DNA of 64,000 nucleotides from Mizuhopecten yessoensis (Eukaryota), in the NCBI RefSeq assembly GCF_002113885.1, contig NW_018404269.1:806028-870027 (forward strand). Direction: 5' to 3'. Positions 851 to 17,990 of this stretch are shown here, in pieces (the first letter of the stretch is position 1; each line of letters opens with the position of its first letter). The position numbers and the translations under genes are program-made. The notes under the pieces are model-generated. The model was not told the origin of the DNA. It saw nothing but the letters and a program-made list of their open reading frames with translations, and did not search any database.

Positions 851-1857
851 ATCTGTATCTGTATGGTATACGGCGCAGATGATCCATATAAACTGGCGAG
901 ATGCACCGGGGGGGGGGGGGGGNNNNNNNNNNNNNNNNNNNNNNNAGCTGTCTTGAAGCTCTCTACTGATGACGCGCACACAACCTCGTCACTTAGACTA
1001 TTCCAGTCTATTGCAGTTTTGATAAAGTATGAGTTTTTAAATGTTGGCGTTTTGTGGTTTGGAATGTCTAGTCCACGGCTGTCATTGGTTGCTCGCGTTT
1101 CTACAATATTGTCCGAAATGAAGTCCTGACATTTCCGCGGTTTAATTTGTCATCCTTTCCGAATGGGCTTAAATATGCTGTAAGGATCTATAGATGGAAC
1201 TAAGCCCTCAACCACTTTGTAACAAAAAGTTAATCTGGAGTTTCGTCTCCTCTTCTGAAATAGGGGAAGGTCCAAGTATTTTAACATTTTTGTCACACAC
1301 CCTTCCTCCCTTGTTTTATAATCGCCTGTGATGAACCTCGCACCTCTCCTTTGTTTTTTTTCAATCCTGTTGATATCCTTCTCTAAGTACAGATCCCACA
1401 CGATGGATCCATATTCCAGTACCGATCTTACCATGGCGATATATGCCACTTTCCTGCAAGATTTCGGACAGTGTTGGAGATTCCGTCTGAGGAATCCGAG
1501 TGTAGAGCTAGCCCTTGATGTCGATTTAGAAATTTGAGTAGTCCAACTTAAGTCTTCCGAAATTGTTAAACCAAGGGAGGGATTTTCTTAAACTTGTTGT
1601 AGAATTTGGTCGTCTAAAGTGTAAAATTTGTTGGATTTTTGTTTGGTACTCATGGTATAACAATTCTTGGCGTTGAACCTCATTCCCCACTTTTTAGCCC
1701 ATACCTTGAGATTGTCCAGGTCACGCTGTAGAATTTCATGGTCTTCCGCCGTTTTTATTTCCTGATACAACAAACAGTCATCCGCGAATAAACGAACAAG
1801 CGACAACACTGCGTCTGACAGATCGTTTATGTGACAGAGGAAGAGAAGTGGGCCCAA
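851..1857 (-). mobile_element. 5'-truncated CR1/L2-group LINE (RT C-terminal half, pseudogenised), inside COQ4 intron 1
   Basis: One reading frame: GPLLFLCHINDL...VRLFADDCLLY...WGMRFNAKNC...AYIAMVRSVLEYGSIVWD...FKNSYFIKTAIDWNSL, broken only by in-frame stops at about 1588 and 1150. A short (CAGATA)n tail lies at about 851-865. An N-gap interrupts it at 923-945. Confidence 0.9.
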
Positions 1858-2340
1858 TCGACTTATCGAATTCTGTCTCTTTTTTCAAAAAGAGACAAAC
1901 GAAAAAAGACCTTAATATCTGACTAGCTCTTTTTATTTTTTAATAGGATTGAGATAGATACAGTTTCTCTGCAACATAAAAAATATCTAAAAAAAGGGGA
2001 CACAATTCAGTTTTATTTGGACGACAGTACCGGGCCGTTTTCATGTAAACGGTCAAACCAGTCGGACCACTGTTGTTCGTTTATTAAATAAGGTCGGACC
2101 TAGTAATCTGATACTGCTTTCAGGCGAGCCTTGACGAAGCCTTGCAAGGCCTGCATAAACATTTACAGGTCCGCCAGGATTTATACCCGAAATTGTTACA
2201 TATATAAACGGTCAAACCGGTTGTTCCGCATAAACGAACAGGCCCCAGTAGTCTAATGAAAAAGGTTCAGACATACAGCGGCTAACAAGATTATGAAAAT
2301 AGACAAATAAGTATGTAAACATAACAGAATACCATGTCAC

Positions 2341-3054: not shown

Positions 3055-3874
3055 GTCAGTACCAATGCTCTGTTTCAGTCACTTTCGTGTAGACAATATA
3101 AGTACATTAAAATATCCAGTCATAGGTCTGTGACCAAGGTGTATAAGGTTCTTCTTCTTTAGGTTATCAGTATTTCTTCAATGATCTGAAGATTATTTAC
3201 TGTTTTGCGCAGGTTATATGATATGCATCCATAGTAACTCCTATGCTAATCTATAATAAAACAAATTGCGTTCATAGATCTAGAGCTATAATACGCGATT
3301 AGATCGATGTCGTTTGGAAGCTACTTCGGCTTTGAATAACAGATTCGTAAATATAAGAATCATTATTTTCGAGGCTCATCAAAATTCTATGAGCTAGTAA
3401 ACGACATGGGACTCGTGATATTATGTAGATTTAAAAATGGACTGTGAACTTTTTACATTTGATAATAATCATTAATAAAATTCCCCCTTTTTTTTTTAAA
3501 ACATTTATGCCAGTCCTGTGGGTATGAGCGGGAGTCGGTTATAATTACATACATGTTTTTACAATGGCAATAGGGTTTCGTGGAATATATATGGATACGA
3601 TCGATTTGCATTCAGACCGATGTTAATGTTGAGCTAATGCCGTTTAAATCGAGTTATCTGGCCACCTTATTTGCAGACCTAAATCATTGTCGGACATAAT
3701 TAACGGACAAGACACCATTTCTCAGTGAAATCATGAATTTGGGGGTGGGGGTCACGTCACAATTCTAAGTTCTTTGTGTAACTGCAAATTGTAAGGAGAT
3801 GGGCGTCTACGCAGACATGCCATACCATAAAATATAAAGAGTATAGGTAGGGGAGAAAGAACCGATAATTATCA

Positions 3875-4106
3875 CAGGACTCGTATTTATGAAACCTTTA
3901 TATTATCATGCTCGAACTCTGGTTCTGTGCTCAAACCCAATTTCTTACTTCGGTGATGATATTTATTTTAGAGCCGAATAACGTTAACAACATCTAAATT
4001 TGACCTTTGGACTCTATCCCGTGATTTAAGTAAGTTATAAGAACGTTGGTTTGAGTACATAATCCACTCTTGAGCATGAGAACGGGTTTCATGAATACAG
4101 GCCCTG
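3875..4106. mobile_element. MITE with imperfect TIRs (PIF/Harbinger-like ends)
   Basis: Left end CAGGACTCGTATTTATGAAACC...CATGCTC...TGCTCAAACC mirrors right end GGTTTGAGTAC...GAGCATG...GGTTTCATGAATACAGGCCCTG. Confidence 0.6.
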
Positions 4107-4441
4107 GTGTTTCAGTGATAACAACTAAACATTTGTTGGTATCATCGCGTCATTTGACTCAAAACAGACTGAAGGCTAGTTCAAACGATGTCGTGCCATT
4201 TAGTGCTGCATACGTATTGGGTTTAAAGTGCTTGTACTTTTAATTTTAAAGAGTGCAACTGTAAATTCTCTCTGGTGTTGGAACACGTTATGAGCACGGA
4301 TATGTGCGTGGTATGGATGTAATCCCGACTTTGAACTTTGACACTACTACGTAGTATGTACTTTCACATATGGTCTTGCACGTAGGTAATTTGTTAATTC
4401 TGGCGGAGTGACATAGCCTTTGAAATAGATATGAAACAATC

Positions 4442-4965
4442 TTCAATAAGATTCATCAGTTTGGAAATATTTTATATCAAAGTTTTACTTTTTACACAAA
4501 CAATAACGTGTCGCAACGTTTCAAAACCGACTGGTCCCTTTGTCACGCTATGACTGAGTGAGCGATTTGTATTATTTACCTGTACAACGATGTGACATAC
4601 AATTCTTTAAATGACGAAATTGTATATTTTTCATGTCTCTCGACCCGAGACGTTTCGCCTATTGATAGGGAGCGTATACACACTGCATCAGATAGGCTAC
4701 AGTTAGGGTGTAGATCTAGCCCCCTCCCATGTTATGTGATGTCAGTATCGGGTCATACAGATGACTCAGCTGTTGTCCCTCTCGTCTCTGTTCATGTTCT
4801 GAGTTTTCCTGATTTAAGAAGCTATCAAAATCAGGAAAACTCAGGACATGAACGGAGACGAGTCGCTCGCTCAGTCATAGCTTGACAAAGGGACCAGTCG
4901 GTCTTGAAACGTTGCGACACGTTTAATACGGATATTGTTTGTGTGAAAAGTAAAACTTTAATATT
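4442..4965. mobile_element. Penelope-like/retrozyme-like insertion with inverted arms carrying minimal hammerhead motifs
   Basis: Inverted repeats of about 90 bp (about 4479-4568 vs 4861-4959). A 13-bp direct repeat ATATGAAACAATC flanks the insertion (4429-4441, 4966-4978). The arms contain TTGACAA-A-GGGACC agtc GGTCTT-GAAAC-GTT. Confidence 0.65.
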
Positions 4966-5279
4966 ATATGAAACAATCCATGACATGAATGTTGAAATTG
5001 ATACCAATGAAGTGCAATTTACAACGGAATGTAAATATCAAGGCCGCCGCGGTTAATTTTCTTTTCGGAATTACATGTGGCGTATGTTTCTAAATTAATC
5101 ATTTAATCACGTTTAATAAGTTTTTATTTTTGTTTTGTTATTTATTATAATGTTTGCTGTAAAAAGATTGAAAAGGGCTGTGGAAACGCATCCGAACCGG
5201 TTGCCCGTGACATGAAGGTCTATGGTATAATTGGAATCAATGTCAATTTTCCTGAATGACAAAGAGAACCCAGTGTTGT

Positions 5280-5697
5280 CATCATCGATATCCAGCGGTT
5301 CCTCGATATCCAGGGGTTACGCTCGCTTTCGCTATCTGCATCCTCGATATCCAGGGGTTACGCTCGCTTTCGCTATCTGCAGCCCGTAATATGTCATAGC
5401 AAAATCGAAAGGTCATTATACATGTGCAACACATTGTGGACGAGACGGAAAGACTTGTTTCATCCTTTGATGTAAATCAAAAGAATCTCGAGGTCGCGTA
5501 ACGGTAAAACTTACTGGCTTTGAAGTCGGGCGTCGCTCCTCTGTAATCTTCAAAGAGCAAGCATCAGCCTACTGATTGGTCAGAATTGTTTTACCTGACA
5601 CCAATCAAATAGCTAGCCGCGTGCCTTCAATTTTGCTATGACATATTCCAGGGGTGTAGACAGAGAAAGTGAGCGTAACCTCTGGATATCGAGGATG
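5280..5697. mobile_element. MITE with ~70-bp TIRs and 9-bp TSD (Mutator-like), copy 1
   Basis: Ends CATC(C/A)TCGATATCCAG...CTGGATATCGAGGATG. TSD CAGTGTTGT at 5271-5279 and 5698-5706. The left TIR is tandemly reiterated. Confidence 0.85.
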
Positions 5698-6070
5698 CAG
5701 TGTTGTTGTATTCAGAAAGAAAAGGGGACTGGTTTATCCTAATGATACTTCATATGATTCAATAGTTATCGAGATATAAGATATGTCACGACTAATGATA
5801 AATTAAACATTTCTAGCTATGTTGTTGCATTTCTCTTGAATGAACAGTTATAAATATATTGTTACGTTTTTGGTCCTTATTTCCATTGCAAAAAAAGAAA
5901 GCTTAAGATCCGTCCCTGGAATGGGATCTCTCTCCCCTTTATGTTCGTAAACGGAAAAACCAACTAAATAATCGGATAATGCATAGAAAAATGTTCTAAC
6001 CACGTCATTATGTTGCTACGATGAGCGGCTTACGCTGAACGAAGTTGCTTATTTTTTTATTTTTTTTCAG

Positions 6071-6296: not shown

Positions 6297-8453
6297 TCAA
6301 TCTTTACAAAGTGTGCTGTTTCGTCTCTTCTACGTGACATTAAAAATCGCAAAACACACCACGTAGTTCAAGAGTTTTTTTTACTACTGGTGATATTCGT
6401 ACAAGTATGTTTCATAGAAACAGATCGTAATATACCTAAGAGTGACTAACTGTATTTGAACTCGGCATATGTTTACTGATATTGTTTATTAAGCTATATT
6501 AAGTAGTGTTAAAATTGCTGGACAAGCTAGATCATTACAAACCTACCTGAACTTTTTCTTAACTGAACGGAAAACTTGAATGAAATATTTAGAGGCATGT
6601 ATCCAAACATGCACCAACTCAAAATAATAAATTAACGATCGGGTATCTAACACACTCTCTTAATGAACGGGAGATGTTTTGTTAAATGCAAATATATTAT
6701 GGTTTCATTTGAGCGGCATGTCACTGCTAGATGTATTCCGATATATGTGCGTGAAATGGTGTTTCACGTGAACATTATTCCGGGGAAACCAATTGTCATT
6801 GCGTGAAAAAGAAACAGCATTTCAATTTGTCAATGTATGTACACGAACAACACGAACATATTATTTCGCATCCGAATTGCCATTGCGTGCGAATGGATTA
6901 TTTAAATTTTATTGACTATAAACGGAATGCTGTTGCTTGTGAATCTTTTATTTTTACGTCTGAACGAGGTGCCATTCCAAGCACTACACCGGTGCGAAGG
7001 TAAAACTGAAAGAAAAATGAGCCCGTCATATCGTGCATGATAATCGAACTGGAAAATACTGCGTGTGACATTTGCATGCGAAAACTATTTATATATAGAC
7101 ACACATGCACGTCTATTGGCGGTACCGTAGGCTTCAGAGTCGTCTTATCAAAATGCGTTATTGCATTGAATAACGTTACCTACACTTTCTGTAGAAAAAA
7201 CACAATTTTATAATGAAACTGGAGTACACGTCAAAAAACAAAAATATGCCGGAGAAATAAAAAGAATGAAATTTCGTTAATAGTTTGTCATCAAAACCCG
7301 ACATCAGTAGCAAAAACTTTCCAAACACAATGTTTGTCCCTCGCACCAAATTTTACTGCAATATAAAACATTTTAACACTAATACTTTCTGAATGAAACC
7401 AAACCGTCGGGTCAGGTGTAACAGACTAGAATGACACTCTCTCACACTCCCACTCTTTCCTCAACATCTACACGCGAAGCAGCACTTAATCTCGTGAATA
7501 ATCAAACTCTCGAACCCAAACCATCAGATCACAGCTACTAGTGGAAACGAACAAACATGTAGTTCCGGCTTTTACTGTGCAGTTCAGAAAAATACTATTT
7601 CATATCTTGCATGTCGTATTGGATGTACCATATTAACTCCTAAGGAACAAAGATTAACATAATAAACACAAACAAATGTGTAGCTGTTATAACGGATATT
7701 TATTGTCCATGTGTTCCTAGTATATTGTCCATGTCCACTTGGTGTATAAGCAAATTGTTCTCGATACATTTTCCACATGTATCTGGTGTGTACTGTCAGT
7801 GTGTACTGATATATTGCTTTGGTAGCTTGCCATTTGGCTTATCTGTGTATTGTACGTTCCTAGAAGTCCTGAGTGAGGAATCCTCTTCTTCCATAGATGC
7901 TTTTAACTTGGCTTGTTCATTTGGTTCTGGCCATCACAGAGTGTGTCATCAAAATTCTTCAAAATCTTACAAAGTGATGTGCGACATTTGAACTGCTTCC
8001 TTGCTAGATAGACCCTTCTTGTTGGCAATGCATGACTGTGGTAATTCCCAGGTTGTCCCTAAGTCCACTGTAAGTAAGCTGGTTGATATATTCAGGACTC
8101 CATTCTAGGTCCGAGACTTTCTCTGTCCCTCTAGATGTTATTCATTTATGATGAGAGATATTAGTAACATGTTTAGCTCATTATCATCTTCGTTGGTGCT
8201 ATGGAATGTGATAATTTCATACGCGAAGGTAAACGCTTTTTTTGCCACGATGCCTGGAATAATACCATCACAAACCATGCGAATCCCCTACCTGCGATAC
8301 TACGGGACTTGAACAATACTGTACGAGACATGACATGACAATTTATCGAGGTAGGGCATACTTCAATTCGAAAAAAAACAACATTCTAACATTAATGCGA
8401 TTTGACTTTTATTTTCATGTCATAACCGAAATATACCCTCTCCCAGATTCACC

Positions 8454-8827
8454 CATCCTCGATATCCAGGGTTTACGCTCACTTTGGCTCTACACCCTGG
8501 AATGTATCGTAGCAAAATCGAAGGCTCTGTGTGCACAACCTTGTAGGCGAGACGAGAAAACTAGTTTAATCCCTTGGTGTACATCAAACGAATCTTGTAG
8601 TCGCGTAACGGTAAAACTTACTGGCTTTGGAGTCGGGCGTCACTCCTCTGTAATCGGGCGTCACTCCTCTGTAATCTTCAAAGGACAAGTTTCGGCCTAG
8701 TGCTTGGTCAGTTGTTGTTTTTACCTGACACCAATCAGATAGCTATCCGCGTGCCTTCGACTTTGCTATGACATATTCCAGGGGTTCAGAGCGCAATTGT
8801 CAGCATAACCCCTTGATAACGAGGATG
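8454..8827. mobile_element. MITE with ~70-bp TIRs and 9-bp TSD (Mutator-like), copy 2 of the same family
   Basis: Ends CATCCTCGATATCCAGGG...CCCTTGATAACGAGGATG. TSD AGATTCACC at 8445-8453 and 8828-8836. Internal sequence is homologous to 5280-5697. Confidence 0.85.
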
Positions 8828-11800
8828 AGATTCACCAGGAAGATAGGAAATATTACTGGCATTATCAAAAATTCGGATTATTTGTATTTTTAAGCTGAGG
8901 TGAGTACTAATCAAGGCCCAATAACAGGCTTCATTGATGTTCCTGTGCTTGCGTCATTTTATGTCTTTCCAAAGTATACACTGACTAGCTCGTCATCTCG
9001 GGATGTGGAGTGGACTCGAATGTCGGATGAAATATGCTTGAAACATTCTTTTAATGCTGCTATAATGTCATGGAGAGGGATAACTATCAAGGCATCTGAT
9101 AGTAAACGTTGCTAGGTCGGTATAGCAATGAAGACATCTGAAAATAATTGAAGACGTCTCGGTGCCATAATCAAGACATCCAAACCAATTCATAACATTT
9201 CGGTGTCGGGATCAAGCCCTCCGATTGTTCAATTCGAGAGCGAGAAAGAGATCAGCTCGTATTATTGTCTGGCAAGCTGGTAGATCTTGTGGTCCTTGCT
9301 CTCCGGAAACACCACAGAAACGAGATATTTACGTTTTCCTCTATTTCGGCGGCTTTCTAACACTGCATGAACTCTGGATATGCACGAGCAAAGCACAAAG
9401 TGCTGATGTTCATTCTCTCCCCCATCCCTTCCCGGGAGACGTTCGCCTTCCTCTTGGCAGTTTAGAAAAGTTTCAAGTGCCACACTTCCTTGGCCTTCTG
9501 CAGTCTCGGCTGGCAAATGTTGATCATGTAAAGCGTTCATACCTATAACATGTCCCGTTTGTCATCGCCCTGAACTTCATTCAGACTGCCGACGTCCTTG
9601 TTACCAATATGTTTAGTATTAGATCATTCATTGCTGAACTAATGCACGTCTGTTAAGCTGGGAACCAAATGCCATCTTCGAGTACTTAAATTCACCCTGC
9701 GAAATACATTATAGTAGCATTGAGGTTTGTCCTGTCACTAGATTTGTGATACAGTCAAGCTGGGTTTTTTCAGGGTATTGCCAATCTGTGTCCCTTCCGC
9801 TCTGCGTAATTCTGAATGGAGTGTTCTTTTTAAATTTATACCTGCTGTTTTTTCCCCAGGAGAAGATCCTTCGCGAACTATGAATTGAGATCATTGTCCT
9901 TATACTCGCACGGAATATACTCTCTGTTACCACTAGTGGTCTCGATTCGGCTACTGTTTAACAGTTCGTCAGTGTAACTTATTGTGTCAAGGGCTTTGTA
10001 TACCATTGTATTGCCACGCTAGTGAGGTCATTATATACTCGGTCTATTTAAAAATAAGATGTGTCATTGCACTCCAGAGCTTTCATTGTGTTTTCTGTAC
10101 CAAAAACGAACAACAAAGAAAGGAGGAGTTTTAATAAGATTGCCTATTATACCGTGACTGTAATCTTTCTTTTTTATCTTGGAATTCGACTCACCACTAC
10201 GGTAAATATTTAAAAAAGAAGAAGATATTTTTCGAGTTTAAGTCGATGTTTTTAAATGCGTCTTATATTTTTATCATATTTGTATTTTAGGGCCCAAACT
10301 CCTTCTGGTCCCCCCAAAATCGGCCATTGTTCTGATGGATTGTTACATGCAGATGGGTGGCGCCGTCTTTCCGGGTATTTGCATGTTCATTGTCCGAAGA
10401 GCTGTGACGAATCTTGTAATCAAGATTTTAACACGAATAATATTATATTTATAATTTTCATAGAACATTTATTAATGTACATGTAATTTAATAATATGGG
10501 AATGTTCTTCTAGCTATAGATTTACTGTAGACTGAAACAAATTGCCAATCTTATTTAAAGTTATCAGTCATTTATCTCTTATCTTTCCCGTATGGTTTCA
10601 CTTGTGACTAATAGTATTCTTGAAAAGTTCTTCACCTCTTGGATACCGGAAAAATGACGTAGCAGTTTCTTTCTGTCTCTCTTTACTTTAATACTGCGAA
10701 ATCCGCCAGCTACCCAGCTTTTATTAAATACCAATAGAAAAAATGACATGCCATGGAAGAGACATTTTGGAGTCGGGCACACACTTAACGGTACTTTGGA
10801 CACAGTGTAAGTTAGTACTAGTATTTCCACGTAAAATACGAAAAGAGGGACTCAGTTAATTGGACACGCAGATTAAGCTGATAAAACTCGGATAGGGTGG
10901 ACTGCATGTTATGCTATGAATAGTTAAAAAATGATAATACTGCAATATTTTGAGAGAGGGAAACAACGACAGAGTTTTTTGGAAAGAGCAGCTTACCCGA
11001 TTAACTGTGTTAACAGAGAGTGAGAGAGAGGGGACACAATCTACTAAGGTATGGTAATTAAGCTGATTGTACTCGAAGAGATTTACACCGAGTTCGGTTC
11101 ATCAGGGTGCAGCTATGTAACAATACGTGAAGAGAAAGAAAGAAAAGAGAGCGATGGGATATGTTCTCGACTATGTAATCTGTCATTTCGCGTTTGAACG
11201 TTAGCCAATGACACTGTTAGGTGTACGTGTAAAACACGTGAGGGAGCCAGGCGGCTGTTGTACGTGACTAAGTTAACTGACACAGATTCACTGTCAGTGC
11301 TAAAGGTCAGTTTTCCTTACGTATATACCTATGCAATTGTGTGTGATGATAGCGTATCTTCTGGCAGGTCCACACAGGTAAGTGAAGTTTGAATGAATTG
11401 TAATGCAAGTGCCGTAAACTAACTTCCGTCTGGGTTCTTATCCGTGGAGCGATTGAAAGATTTTAATGTTTCTCGGTAAATGTTGCATGGGTGGATGATT
11501 GAGACTGAGAGTATAGGTTACAGAACATATATCAATACACCCTTGATTACAACAGGATGTGACCGGTTCAGTGCTCAGCTGGTGAACCCTGTTTATATAT
11601 CTATATATTATATTTGTATGTATATATAATATAGAGAACCCAGTTCATTAAATATAGAGAGGCGTGGTTGGCTGATCGCGATACCTGTAACGTACAGGTA
11701 GATGTTTGTTGTGTGTATATTGTATGCAGTTTATGTTGCATCTGCTACCGTCACACATTATACTTGTTGTCCAAAATGATTACAATCATGATCAGCTGAT

Positions 11801-12371: not shown

Positions 12372-14099
12372 TCGCATAGTTGACATTTTTACATAACATT
12401 TCCAGACCCTTGATTAACAAAAGAATTATTTACAGAATCATTGTAAATACCTGTTCTCTTAAAATCTCCGTATACAATCAGTTGTCCCTTGGTTTTGTAT
12501 TCACAATTTATCTCTCCAAGACAAATATCATTTGCATACTTTTTGTAAAAAAAATCTTTTACTGTAACAGGTGGGAAACAACACTCAAATATATTTATAT
12601 ATGTATCTTCGTCATCCTTTGTAACATAACTTTAAACAAATGTTATCGCATAAATATTTACAAAAGGATTGTAACATTAGTGGATAGCTTTTACAGTTCA
12701 ATATTATCCTTACTGTTATCGACTGGTTTAATATAATTACGGTTCCATCACGATTACCATACATCGGGTAAACACACAACACTTCCACTACGCCCTCTTT
12801 CTCAAATCATGCTTTACACACACGTATTGCATCATATTTATAAGTATTGTTTAACACAGCTGTGATATCAGCCATTTTATCCGTGTTATGATGCATGACC
12901 AGCTATCCAATATGTTACTGGTAGCTGGACCGTAATATTGAACAGCGCCATCTGCTATGTCAATTTAACAAAAACAATTGCAATGCGTTCTATTGAAAAG
13001 TACAAACCAGTCACTTTTACTCATATTGAGTTAATTAATTCCTTAGTTTTGAATGTTACTTTCCTTTCATAATGCAACATTCCTTCCTTGCCGACAGTTT
13101 TTTTTTGTTTTTTTTTGTTTTTACATTTTTTCTATTTCTATCAGGTTATTCAAATGATATGCTTGCAGTAAGAATTTCTTGAGTTATTTACGTGATATCA
13201 ACGTCATGAATATAAGAAACACTGTTACTCTTTACTGTGAAGTCAGGATTATAAAATCTATCACTTTTACATGTACCTCCATCAGTTTTCTTTGTGTGTA
13301 AACTATATAATGAAAATTTGTTCCCCCTATCCGAATATATTTATATAAAAAAATTGCGTGCATGATTTAATATTCATGAAAATCGATCAGATCATTATAC
13401 ACATGAGGAATCTTAGAGCAAGGCAATGTCCTGGGTTCGTAAGTGCTTTATTTGTAAAAGTCCAGTATGTTATTGACAAAAACTGCTCGCATGATTGAAT
13501 ACTGGTGAAAATCACTTTTACATGTACCTCCATCAGTTTTTCTTTATGAATAAATTACATAATGAAAAATTGTTTTCCCTGTCTGAATATATTTTATTGA
13601 ATGATTGAAAGTCTCGAAAGCAAATACTTTACCTGAAGGTGTCCATTATTACAATAATAAAATAAATGCGTGCATGATTGAATATTCATGAAAATCGATC
13701 AGATCATTATCCCCACGAGGACTCTTAGAGCAAGGCAATGTCCTGGGTTTGTAAGTGCTTTATTTGTAAAAAGTTCAGTATGGTGTTGACAAAAACTGCT
13801 CGCCTGATTGAATACAGGTGAAAACCAGTCCAATATGTTTACAAGTCCGTTTTATTTTTACAAAAAGAACTCATGTTGGTCTAACAGCTTTCAAATATTC
13901 TTTCTGTCATCATATCTGACTTGTTTAGTCTTTTACTAGTGACCCAGTGGCAAGGAAGCTAGCTATGATTGCTTTCTACAGTCAATACAAGATCAATCCG
14001 CGCTATTACGTATAGACAAATATACACACATACCATACACACATTATTGTTGTTACACACACGGAGGCACGCCCTCAAATGAACTTAGCTTTTAATAGG
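12372..14099 (+). repeat. ~1.7-kb segment duplicated at 16252-17990 (copy A)
   Basis: Sequence appears identical at offset 3880 (the same 118-aa ORF at 12380 and 16260) and diverges after about 13800. It also contains an internal ~250-310-bp tandem duplication (about 13260-13825). Confidence 0.95.
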
Positions 14100-16251: not shown

Positions 16252-17990
16252 TCGCATAGTTGACATTTTTACATAACATTTCCAGACCCTTGATTAACAA
16301 AAGAATTATTTACAGAATCATTGTAAATACCTGTTCTCTTAAAATCTCCGTATACAATCAGTTGTCCCTTGGTTTTGTATTCACAATTTATCTCTCCAAG
16401 ACAAATATCATTTGCATACTTTTTGTAAAAAAAATCTTTTACTGTAACAGGTGGGAAACAACACTCAAATATATTTATATATGTATCTTCGTCATCCTTT
16501 GTAACATAACTTTAAACAAATGTTATCGCATAAATATTTACAAAAGGATTGTAACATTAGTGGATAGCTTTTACAGTTCAATATTATCCTTACTGTTATC
16601 GACTGGTTTAATATAATTACGGTTCCATCACGATTACCATACATCGGGTAAACACACAACACTTCCACTACGCCCTCTTTCTCAAATCATGCTTTACACA
16701 CACGTATTGCATCATATTTATAAGTATTGTTTAACACAGCTGTGATATCAGCCATTTTATCCGTGTTATGATGCATGACCAGCTATCCAATATGTTACTG
16801 GTAGCTGGACCGTAATATTGAACAGCGCCATCTGCTATGTCAATTTAACAAAAACAATTGCAATGCGTTCTATTGAAAAGTACAAACCAGTCACTTTTAC
16901 TCATATTGAGTTAATTAATTCCTTAGTTTTGAATGTTACTTTCCTTTCATAATGCAACATTCCTTCCTTGCCGACAGTTTTTTTTTGTTTTTTTTTGTTT
17001 TTACATTTTTTCTATTTCTATCAGGTTATTCAAATGATATGCTTGCAGTAAGAATTTCTTGAGTTATTTACGTGATATCAACGTCATGAATATAAGAAAC
17101 ACTGTTACTCTTTACTGTGAAGTCAGGATTATAAAATCTATCACTTTTACATGTACCTCCATCAGTTTTCTTTGTGTGTAAACTATATAATGAAAATTTG
17201 TTCCCCCTATCCGAATATATTTATATAAAAAAATTGCGTGCATGATTTAATATTCATGAAAATCGATCAGATCATTATACACATGAGGAATCTTAGAGCA
17301 AGGCAATGTCCTGGGTTCGTAAGTGCTTTATTTGTAAAAGTCCAGTATGTTATTGACAAAAACTGCTCGCATGATTGAATACTGGTGAAAATCACTTTTA
17401 CATGTACCTCCATCAGTTTTTCTTTATGAATAAATTACATAATGAAAAATTGTTTTCCCTGTCTGAATATATTTTATTGAATGATTGAAAGTCTCGAAAG
17501 CAAATACTTTACCTGAAGGTGTCCATTATTACAATAATAAAATAAATGCGTGCATGATTGAATATTCATGAAAATCGATCAGATCATTATCCCCACGAGG
17601 ACTCTTAGAGCAAGGCAATGTCCTGGGTTTGTAAGTGCTTTATTTGTAAAAAGTTCAGTATGGTGTTGACAAAAACTGCTCGCTTGATTGAATACAGGTG
17701 AAAACCAGTCCAATATGTTTACAAGTCCATTTTATTTTTACAAAAAGAACTCATGTCGGTCAAACAGCTTCCAAGTATTCTTTCTGTCATCATATCTGAC
17801 TTGTTTAGTCTTTTACTAGTGATCCAATGGCAAGGAAGCTAGCTATGATTGCTTCCTAAGTCACAAAATAACAAGATCAATCCGCGCTATTACAAATAGA
17901 GACAAATATACATGTACACACATACCATACACACATGATTTTGTTACAAACACGGAGGCGCGCACTTAATTGACCTTAGCATTCAATAGG
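16252..17990 (+). repeat. Copy B of the 12372-14099 segment, starting right after a single-N gap
   Basis: Begins at the N at 16251, matches copy A for about 1.4 kb, then is clearly diverged. Confidence 0.95.

What the first reader, a model, noticed from the sequence alone, without database searches (positions are those of the whole stretch)
4442..4965. TSD-flanked inverted element with compensated (U3-A8) minimal hammerhead ribozyme motifs in the DNLZ intron
Seen at 4874-4918 (+): GTCATAGC-TTGACAA-A-GGGACC agtc GGTCTT-GAAAC-GTT-GCGAC. This fits a type-I hammerhead with the core CUGANGA changed to UUGACAA and a palindromic minimal stem III (AACGTT). A mirror copy on the - strand (about 4509-4554, core GUGACAA) continues toward a truncated canonical CTGATGA at about 4453-4459. 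A 13-bp direct repeat flanks the whole. Known: C3-G8 is a tertiary base pair that tolerates U-A, and Penelope-like elements carry minimal hammerheads in pseudo-LTRs that are often inverted. Inference: a non-coding PLE- or retrozyme-derived insertion places a potentially self-cleaving motif in the sense strand of the DNLZ pre-mRNA.
Basis: partly seen in the sequence, partly recalled or inferred. Interest (0 to 1): 0.7.

Follow-up and report, generated by a model that had tools for sequence, protein, structure and literature searches.

The report
Penelope transposon remnant in DNLZ intron
This is the broken-off tail end of a Penelope-type jumping gene lying as an inverted pair in an intron of the DNLZ gene; it carries an already described variant of the hammerhead self-cutting RNA motif that is predicted to be folded shut in the host transcript, so it is likely an ordinary passenger.

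Summary
The sequence features are real, but the element is ordinary. 4442-4965 is a 5'-truncated Penelope/Poseidon-type retroelement insertion: two head-to-head arms, each with the last endonuclease codons plus pseudo-LTR, a ~32-bp tail on one arm only, and a 10-13-bp target duplication. Longer genomic copies carry RT and GIY-YIG pieces. The U3-A8 minimal hammerhead is the family norm (72 of 78 aligned segments; 82 exact 36-mers in the genome). A model built only from 11 foreign PLE families ranks it first in the window (E 1e-6), and a sister family keeps U3-A8 with compensatory stems, so it is a true PLE hammerhead. U3-A8 cores and opposite-strand pairs were published in 2014 (PMC4209133). 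Corrections: the 'truncated CTGATGA' is the start codon of the element's ORF (MNLIED), and the element is neither a retrozyme nor purely non-coding. In DNLZ pre-mRNA the motif has no dimer partner and is predicted ~95% paired to the opposite arm; the intron is spliced normally in 4 of 4 RNA runs. The scan reported a PLE hammerhead remnant elsewhere in this genome before (e1-9880437).

The parts
4429..4441 (.). Left target-site duplication ATATGAAACAATC (last 3 bp ambiguous with the element end)
   Evidence: D5; family ends continue GAT after the tail
4442..4815 (-). Main arm: 5'-truncated PLE copy = last endonuclease codons, 3' UTR/pseudo-LTR and tail; 337 of 350 aligned bases match the family majority
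4510..4554 (-). Minimal type-I hammerhead copy with a broken 3-8 pair (G3/A8); antisense to DNLZ
   Evidence: 21.4 bits, E 2.5e-4
4649..4691 (-). Degenerate upstream hammerhead-like relic (CTGATGC...GGCGAAACGTC; C at position 9, no adjacent stems)
   Evidence: not found by model R1 at E up to 5; further decayed in the sister family
4732..4815 (-). C-terminal GIY-YIG endonuclease codons (IRKTQNMNRDE, then a 1-nt frameshift against the family majority)
   Evidence: same peptide ends L038 and L043
4781..4862 (.). 35-bp hairpin (94%) formed by the head-to-head junction of the two arms
   Evidence: I3; Rfam miRNA matches all below gathering score
4816..4965 (+). Inverted arm: 47 nt of endonuclease (EAIKIRKTQDMNGDE), internal deletion of about 195 nt, then pseudo-LTR end without tail
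4874..4918 (+). Minimal type-I hammerhead, U3-A8 core, A9.1, G10.1-U11.1, ACGU palindrome, GUU cleavage triplet; sense to DNLZ
   Evidence: 28.2 bits, E 1e-6
4966..4978 (.). Right target-site duplication
   Evidence: D5
3055..6070 (+). Host DNLZ (zf-DNL) intron, GT..AG, spliced in 4 of 4 RNA runs laid

Best explanation
The element is a dead, 5'-truncated copy of a Penelope-like retroelement family, inserted as a head-to-head inverted pair with a one-sided tail and a target duplication, and its U3-A8 minimal hammerhead is the family's standard pseudo-LTR motif, which is predicted to be inert in DNLZ pre-mRNA. Shown: family membership, RT and endonuclease in longer copies, tail, duplication, covariation of the motif across families, normal splicing of the intron. 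Inferred: the parent's RT-endonuclease nicked AT-rich DNA and started cDNA at the two internal start sites that define the long (tailed) and short ends, as shown in vitro for anole Poseidon (PMC11167929); both products were joined head to head after early truncation, one with an internal deletion. In the parent RNA the hammerhead likely works as a slow, dimer- or protein-assisted cutter about 70 nt upstream of the start codon; in this intron it likely does nothing.
For: Family: 2869 first-look candidates, 40 scored, 124 matches; 82 exact copies of the 36-nt motif, 0 for the reversed control. Longer copies run into GIY-YIG (L040: Pfam 25.2 bits, above the 22.6 cut-off) and RT (L034: RVT_1 E 8.2e-6, 26.1 bits, below the 29.6 cut-off), 46% and 41% identical to a full-length 855-aa PLE protein P0041. 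Inverted architecture in 31 of about 82 non-redundant loci; tail on exactly one arm in 30 of 31, on both in 0; 13 of these were fetched by the tail pattern, and among the 18 that were not it is 17 of 18. Flanking direct repeat of 8 bp or more in 22 of 31 against 46 of 930 mismatched flank pairs. U3 with A8 in 72 of 78 segments. Across relatives 38 of 43 motifs have a Watson-Crick 3-8 pair (C-G 20, G-C 15, U-A 3) against 1 of 28 in shuffles; 17 of 18 by family. Sister family: TTGACAA with stem II GGAAAC/GTTTTC, palindrome AGCU, stem I TTTGC/GCAAA. Folding 4400-5000: stem I and II probability 0.0, motif bases paired to the left arm with mean probability 0.95, duplex -119.7 kcal/mol; no other sense copy in the window. 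Splice joint in 19 reads of X19 and in contigs of three more runs; no pile-up of read ends.
Against: No full-length or tandem copy with an upstream pseudo-LTR was found: 0 of 66 tail ends ran on into family ORF, so the ORF start is inferred from relatives. Clade (Penelope/Poseidon) rests on domain order and absence of a Cys linker by eye, not on a tree with reference elements. Within the family there is no covariation and the core is not significantly better kept than other UTR positions (875/912 vs 12940/13806, p 0.12). Folding is equilibrium prediction only. RNA depth over unique intron sequence was near zero in the one raw-read run, so a cleavage end could have been missed. No empty site was seen among the 15 joints listed (115 not shown), so the target duplication is not proven by an empty allele.
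Confidence: 0.9

Rival explanations
1. The sense-strand U3-A8 hammerhead was co-opted and cuts DNLZ pre-mRNA (in trans-dimers with other family transcripts or with PLE protein help), tuning splicing or mRNA level.
For: The sense copy matches the family motif base for base while the antisense copy has lost the 3-8 pair; the right junction is carried by DNA contigs of 4 of 4 runs; family RNA is present in RNA runs, so partners in trans exist; PLE hammerheads can be protein-assisted (PMC11167929).
Against: 82 exact copies of the motif exist genome-wide, so an intact copy needs no selection; the complementary arm is transcribed first and predicted to sequester it; only 2 stem-I pairs next to the core, G-U at 10.1-11.1 and a GUU triplet; min-HHR monomers showed no cleavage in vitro (PMC4209133); normal splicing.
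Confidence: 0.04
2. The element is a non-autonomous retrozyme or MITE-like unit amplified as a whole, with terminal inverted repeats.
For: Terminal inverted arms and a target duplication; many copies are short and lack most of the ORF.
Against: Each copy has its own truncation and inversion points, spans 111-1958 bp; endonuclease codons in both arms; longer copies continue into RT and endonuclease; no head-to-tail monomer array, which defines non-LTR retrozymes (bioRxiv 10.64898/2026.07.22.740005).
Confidence: 0.03
3. Motif B is a decayed pseudo-ribozyme even in the parent element: U3-A8 is kept by descent or for another role (RNA structure, protein binding), not for catalysis.
For: Weak stem I, G-U closing of stem II, GUU triplet; hammerhead mutants do not impair anole PLE insertion in vitro and no reads ended at the cleavage site (PMC11167929). 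This rival is compatible with the best explanation's account of the insertion.
Against: Two families of this genome keep U3-A8 while changing stems I, II and the stem III palindrome in compensating ways; G-U at 10.1-11.1 occurs in 3 of 11 foreign families and GUU in several.
Confidence: 0.3

Closest known systems
Minimal type-I hammerheads (min-HHR) in pseudo-LTRs of metazoan PLEs, including the U3-A8 variant of Schistosoma mansoni Cercyon elements (Cervera and de la Pena 2014, PMC4209133; parts 1-2 of 4 of the text read: abstract, results, discussion, start of methods; figures and supplements not seen)
   Same: U3-A8 core, unpaired base between 9 and 10.1, longer helix II, short helix I, palindromic 15.2-16.2 without loop, dispersed single motifs from truncated PLEs, and pairs 100-700 bp apart on opposite strands (here about 320 bp).
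   Different: Host is a bivalve-like genome, not a trematode; G10.1-U11.1 instead of the conserved G10.1-C11.1; stem I next to the core is only 2 bp before a bulge; a degenerate second motif lies 126 nt upstream.
Canonical EN+ PLEs, Penelope/Poseidon clade, insertion structure (Craig et al. 2021, PMC8557442; 12 passages read)
   Same: 5' truncation, inverted truncated copy at the 5' end giving flanking inverted repeats, 30-40-bp tail at one end only, RT followed by C-terminal GIY-YIG without a Zn-finger-like linker.
   Different: No partial tandem or full-length copy recovered here; this copy keeps only a few endonuclease codons.
Poseidon of Anolis carolinensis, PAc (Frangieh et al. 2024, PMC11167929; parts 1-2 of 4 read)
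   Same: Two discrete 3' ends about 30 bp apart (family ends pile at positions 342 and 374 of the query, 16 and 28 of 67), AT-rich target, hammerhead in the pseudo-LTR.
   Different: In PAc the ORF starts inside the hammerhead and the tail lies over 100 nt into the ORF; here the hammerhead lies about 60-70 nt upstream of the ATG and the tail straddles the start codon.
Non-LTR retrozymes (bioRxiv 10.64898/2026.07.22.740005, part 1 of 5 read; PMC7229834 seen as listing only)
   Same: Type-I hammerhead related to PLE pseudo-LTRs.
   Different: Retrozymes are non-coding head-to-tail repeats; this is an inverted, ORF-derived fragment.

Membership tests
EN+ Penelope-like elements | RT domain followed by C-terminal GIY-YIG endonuclease in family copies | tested here: met
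   pieces in L034, L040, L043, L019; homology to full-length P0041
EN+ Penelope-like elements | Hammerhead in the pseudo-LTR, after the stop and before the next start codon | tested here: met
EN+ Penelope-like elements | 5' truncation with inverted copy and a 30-40-bp tail at one end | tested here: met
   30 of 31 inverted loci have the tail on one arm only
EN+ Penelope-like elements | Partial tandem with upstream pseudo-LTR and a full ORF | tested here: inconclusive
   0 of 66 tail ends continue into ORF; relatives in metagenomes do show it; only about 150 of thousands of candidate loci were fetched
Penelope/Poseidon clade | No Zn-finger-like linker between RT and EN; EN C-terminal | tested here: met
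   L034, L043, L100 read from the RT thumb into the EN without a Cys cluster; criterion from PMC8557442
Penelope/Poseidon clade | Placement in an RT tree with reference elements | not tested
   no named reference PLE proteins were available from the tools
Minimal type-I hammerhead | Core N3-UGA-N-N8-A with a 3-8 pair, GAAA, UH, helix II, helix I, palindromic helix III | tested here: met
Minimal type-I hammerhead | G10.1-C11.1 pair | tested here: not met
   G-U in 68 of 78 segments; a wobble also seen in 3 of 11 foreign families; G-C in the U3-A8 sister family. A common, not obligatory feature
Minimal type-I hammerhead | Self-cleavage as dimer | not testable with these tools
   needs in vitro assay
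Rfam hammerhead families | Match to a curated model | tested here: not met
   22 matches at E up to 10, none a hammerhead, none at gathering score
Non-LTR retrozymes | Non-coding head-to-tail repeats each with a hammerhead | tested here: not met

The most novel reading that the evidence does not exclude
The intact sense-strand U3-A8 hammerhead escapes the duplex or pairs in trans with family transcripts and cuts DNLZ pre-mRNA, making a PLE relic a regulator of a mitochondrial Hsp70 escort gene; or the 35-bp and 66-bp hairpins act as a double-stranded RNA element on this transcript. A milder novelty that is better supported: a bivalve PLE lineage of at least two families fixed U3-A8 with compensating stems, a ready natural series (C-G, G-C, U-A) for testing what PLE hammerheads do.
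Probability: 0.04. Interest if true: 0.65.

Novelty: new member of a known kind. Interest (0 to 1): 0.16.

Why it matters
As it stands it matters little: one of very many dead PLE fragments, with a motif variant and an insertion shape already described. Its use is as material: the families found here give natural C3-G8, G3-C8 and U3-A8 cores with compensating stems, which could help test the open question of whether PLE hammerheads cleave in vivo. It would matter more only if the intronic copy were shown to cut or regulate DNLZ RNA, which the folding and splicing evidence makes unlikely.

Tried and rejected
Rfam scan found no hammerhead; the miRNA matches reflect the 35-bp junction hairpin and are all below gathering score. 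Third hammerhead at CTGATGA 4453-4459 rejected: the family continues GATATT, not GAAA, after the small stem; related ORFs start MN[LF] and only some have CTG before the ATG. Upstream motif A as a cis dimer partner rejected by inspection: neither cross stem I pairs at the first positions, and it lies on the other strand from the sense motif; model R1 does not find it. Search for a tandem or full-length master: 66 tail ends, matches after the tail were unrelated repeats or duplicated loci. Within-family selection test negative. Empty-site allele not seen; the left junction is crossed by only 26 letters, under the tool's 31-letter bar. RNA reads on the element come largely from other copies (loose ends), so they say nothing on editing or cleavage of this copy. 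A first locus search failed because the alignment was too diverse; viral contigs were not scanned. Rows dropped: 8 duplicate or overlapping loci, 10; for alignment A5, three families with a longer loop III (out of register) and the U3-A8 family L133 (left out on purpose so the model held no U-A example). Rows of A5 were picked for a stem II of 5 bp or more, so stem II pairing there is partly by construction; the 3-8 pair and stem I were not selected for. Family grouping was by eye and families are not independent, so its p value is only indicative; one sister-family row (L218) was mis-parsed. Lunse et al. 2017 on PLE hammerhead variants was not held (title seen in a reference list only) and may already cover U3-A8, G3-C8 and G-U variants. 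Searches for print; only PMC4209133 held 'U3-A8' with hammerhead terms; none described this family.

Full report
Observation. The motif, its mirror copy, the CTGATGA and the 13-bp direct repeat are all at or within a base of the stated places. The host gene is DNLZ on the + strand: zf-DNL at E 2.8e-26, second exon NIEEILAEKGE..., intron 3055-6070 with a GT..AG joint in 19 reads of one raw RNA run and in contigs of three more. Rfam holds no matching hammerhead model, so I tested the motif by comparison instead.

What the element is. A DNA search of the own genome gave 2869 first-look candidates, 40 scored. Aligned copies share the window's left arm and many run further upstream into coding sequence. 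Those pieces are a GIY-YIG endonuclease (L040, above Pfam's cut-off) preceded by RT (L034, E 8.2e-6, below cut-off), 46% and 41% identical to a full-length 855-aa protein with the same layout. No Cys-rich linker lies between RT and endonuclease, which by the criterion in PMC8557442 (passages) points to Penelope/Poseidon. The closest named protein to a sister family is from the scallop Ylistrum balloti (76% over 68% of the query), so the host is probably a pectinid bivalve (inference). Both window arms keep the last endonuclease codons. The left arm matches the family majority at 337 of 350 bases; the right arm is a 47-nt coding piece joined, across a deletion of about 195 nt, to the pseudo-LTR end.

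Insertion signature. Family 3' ends pile at two places 32 nt apart (16 and 28 of 67 ends). Of 31 inverted loci (of about 82 non-redundant loci examined), 30 have the long end on exactly one arm and none on both; 13 were fetched through the tail, and among the other 18 it is 17. A flanking direct repeat of 8 bp or more occurs in 22 of 31, against 46 of 930 mismatched pairs. This is the published PLE pattern: an inverted truncated copy at the 5' end and a 30-40-bp tail at one end, explained by two RT start sites in anole Poseidon (PMC11167929). The tail reads ATG AAT CTT ATT GAA GAT, MNLIED; related full ORFs begin MNLFQDL, MNLFRDL, MNFFNTI, and their tails also stop a few codons after the ATG. 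This is inferred, since no tandem master was found (0 of 66 tail ends).

Is the hammerhead real? U3 with A8 stands in 72 of 78 aligned segments and G10.1 with U11.1 in 68 of 78; 82 exact 36-mers lie in the genome. Inside the family there is no covariation and no significant extra conservation (95.9% against 93.7%, p 0.12; CpG 84.8%), as expected of dead copies. Between families there is. A sister family at about 50% protein identity has CTGATGA in the same place. A closer one has TTGACAA with different, compensating stems and the palindrome AGCU for ACGU (17 of 19 rows parsed as U3-A8, one mis-parsed). Among 80 metagenome loci plus 3 own loci and the window piece, 43 motifs in 37 of 84 loci (shuffled mean 1.4) had a Watson-Crick 3-8 pair in 38 cases: C-G 20, G-C 15, U-A 3. 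On 11 foreign families 94.5% of cells pair, covariation 0.933 against 0.252 shuffled (stem II partly by selection). A model built from these, holding no U-A example and nothing from this genome, ranks 4874-4919 first in the window (28.2 bits, E 1e-6) and the mirror second (21.4 bits), and scores the sister families alike.

How it most likely works. In the parent RNA it would cut slowly after GUU as a dimer through the ACGU palindrome or with protein help; published min-HHRs were inactive as monomers and weak as dimers (PMC4209133), and the anole one needed protein and was dispensable for insertion in vitro. In DNLZ pre-mRNA only the right-arm copy is sense, no other sense copy lies in the window, and the left arm, transcribed earlier, is 92% complementary over 66 nt: stems I and II have probability 0.0 and the motif is 95% paired to that arm; even alone stem I forms at 0.05 or less. 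The intron is spliced and no read ends pile up, though intron depth was near zero. DNA contigs of 4 of 4 runs cross the right junction; no empty site was listed.

Comparison and verdict. Cervera and de la Pena 2014 describe the U3-A8 core (about 1,300 hits in S. mansoni), the 9.1 base, and dual motifs 100-700 bp apart on opposite strands. What differs here is the host, the G-U closing pair, the weak stem I and a decayed upstream motif. My searches found no description of this family; the most relevant paper on PLE hammerhead variants was not held. New member of a known kind; interest low.

Noticed in passing
L144, L145, L150, L151, L163, L165, L172, L177, L183, L189, L193, L198, L200 and L210: PLE families in metagenome contigs with a natural G3-C8 hammerhead core (GTGATCA), in at least two families with different stems; L133 is an independent U3-A8 case.
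   Followed up: partly
window 4649-4691 (-): Degenerate second hammerhead-like stretch 126 nt upstream of the U3-A8 motif; GGCGAAAYGTCTC is shared with the sister family while the CTGA half has decayed there, suggesting an old duplicated ribozyme.
   Followed up: partly
L131, L144, L178, L192, L204, L215 and window 4480-4500 (-): A GTTGTGT/GTTTGTGT motif about 20-30 nt after the cleavage site, and often GGTAA just after stem I, recur across distant PLE families; could be a protein-binding or splice-donor signal.
   Followed up: no
window 5280-5698 (+), second copy near 8450-8830: Another abundant repeat in the same DNLZ intron with about 33-bp terminal inverted repeats and an internal 41-bp duplication, MITE-like.
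   Followed up: no
window about 4070-4110: Short, very high-copy repeat in the same intron (depth spike).
   Followed up: no
window 1150-1884 (-): Fragment of a non-LTR retrotransposon RT (…LVRLFADDCLLY…) upstream of DNLZ.
   Followed up: no
window 12380-12806 and 16260-16686: Identical reading frames 3880 bp apart: a recent tandem duplication or an assembly duplicate.
   Followed up: no
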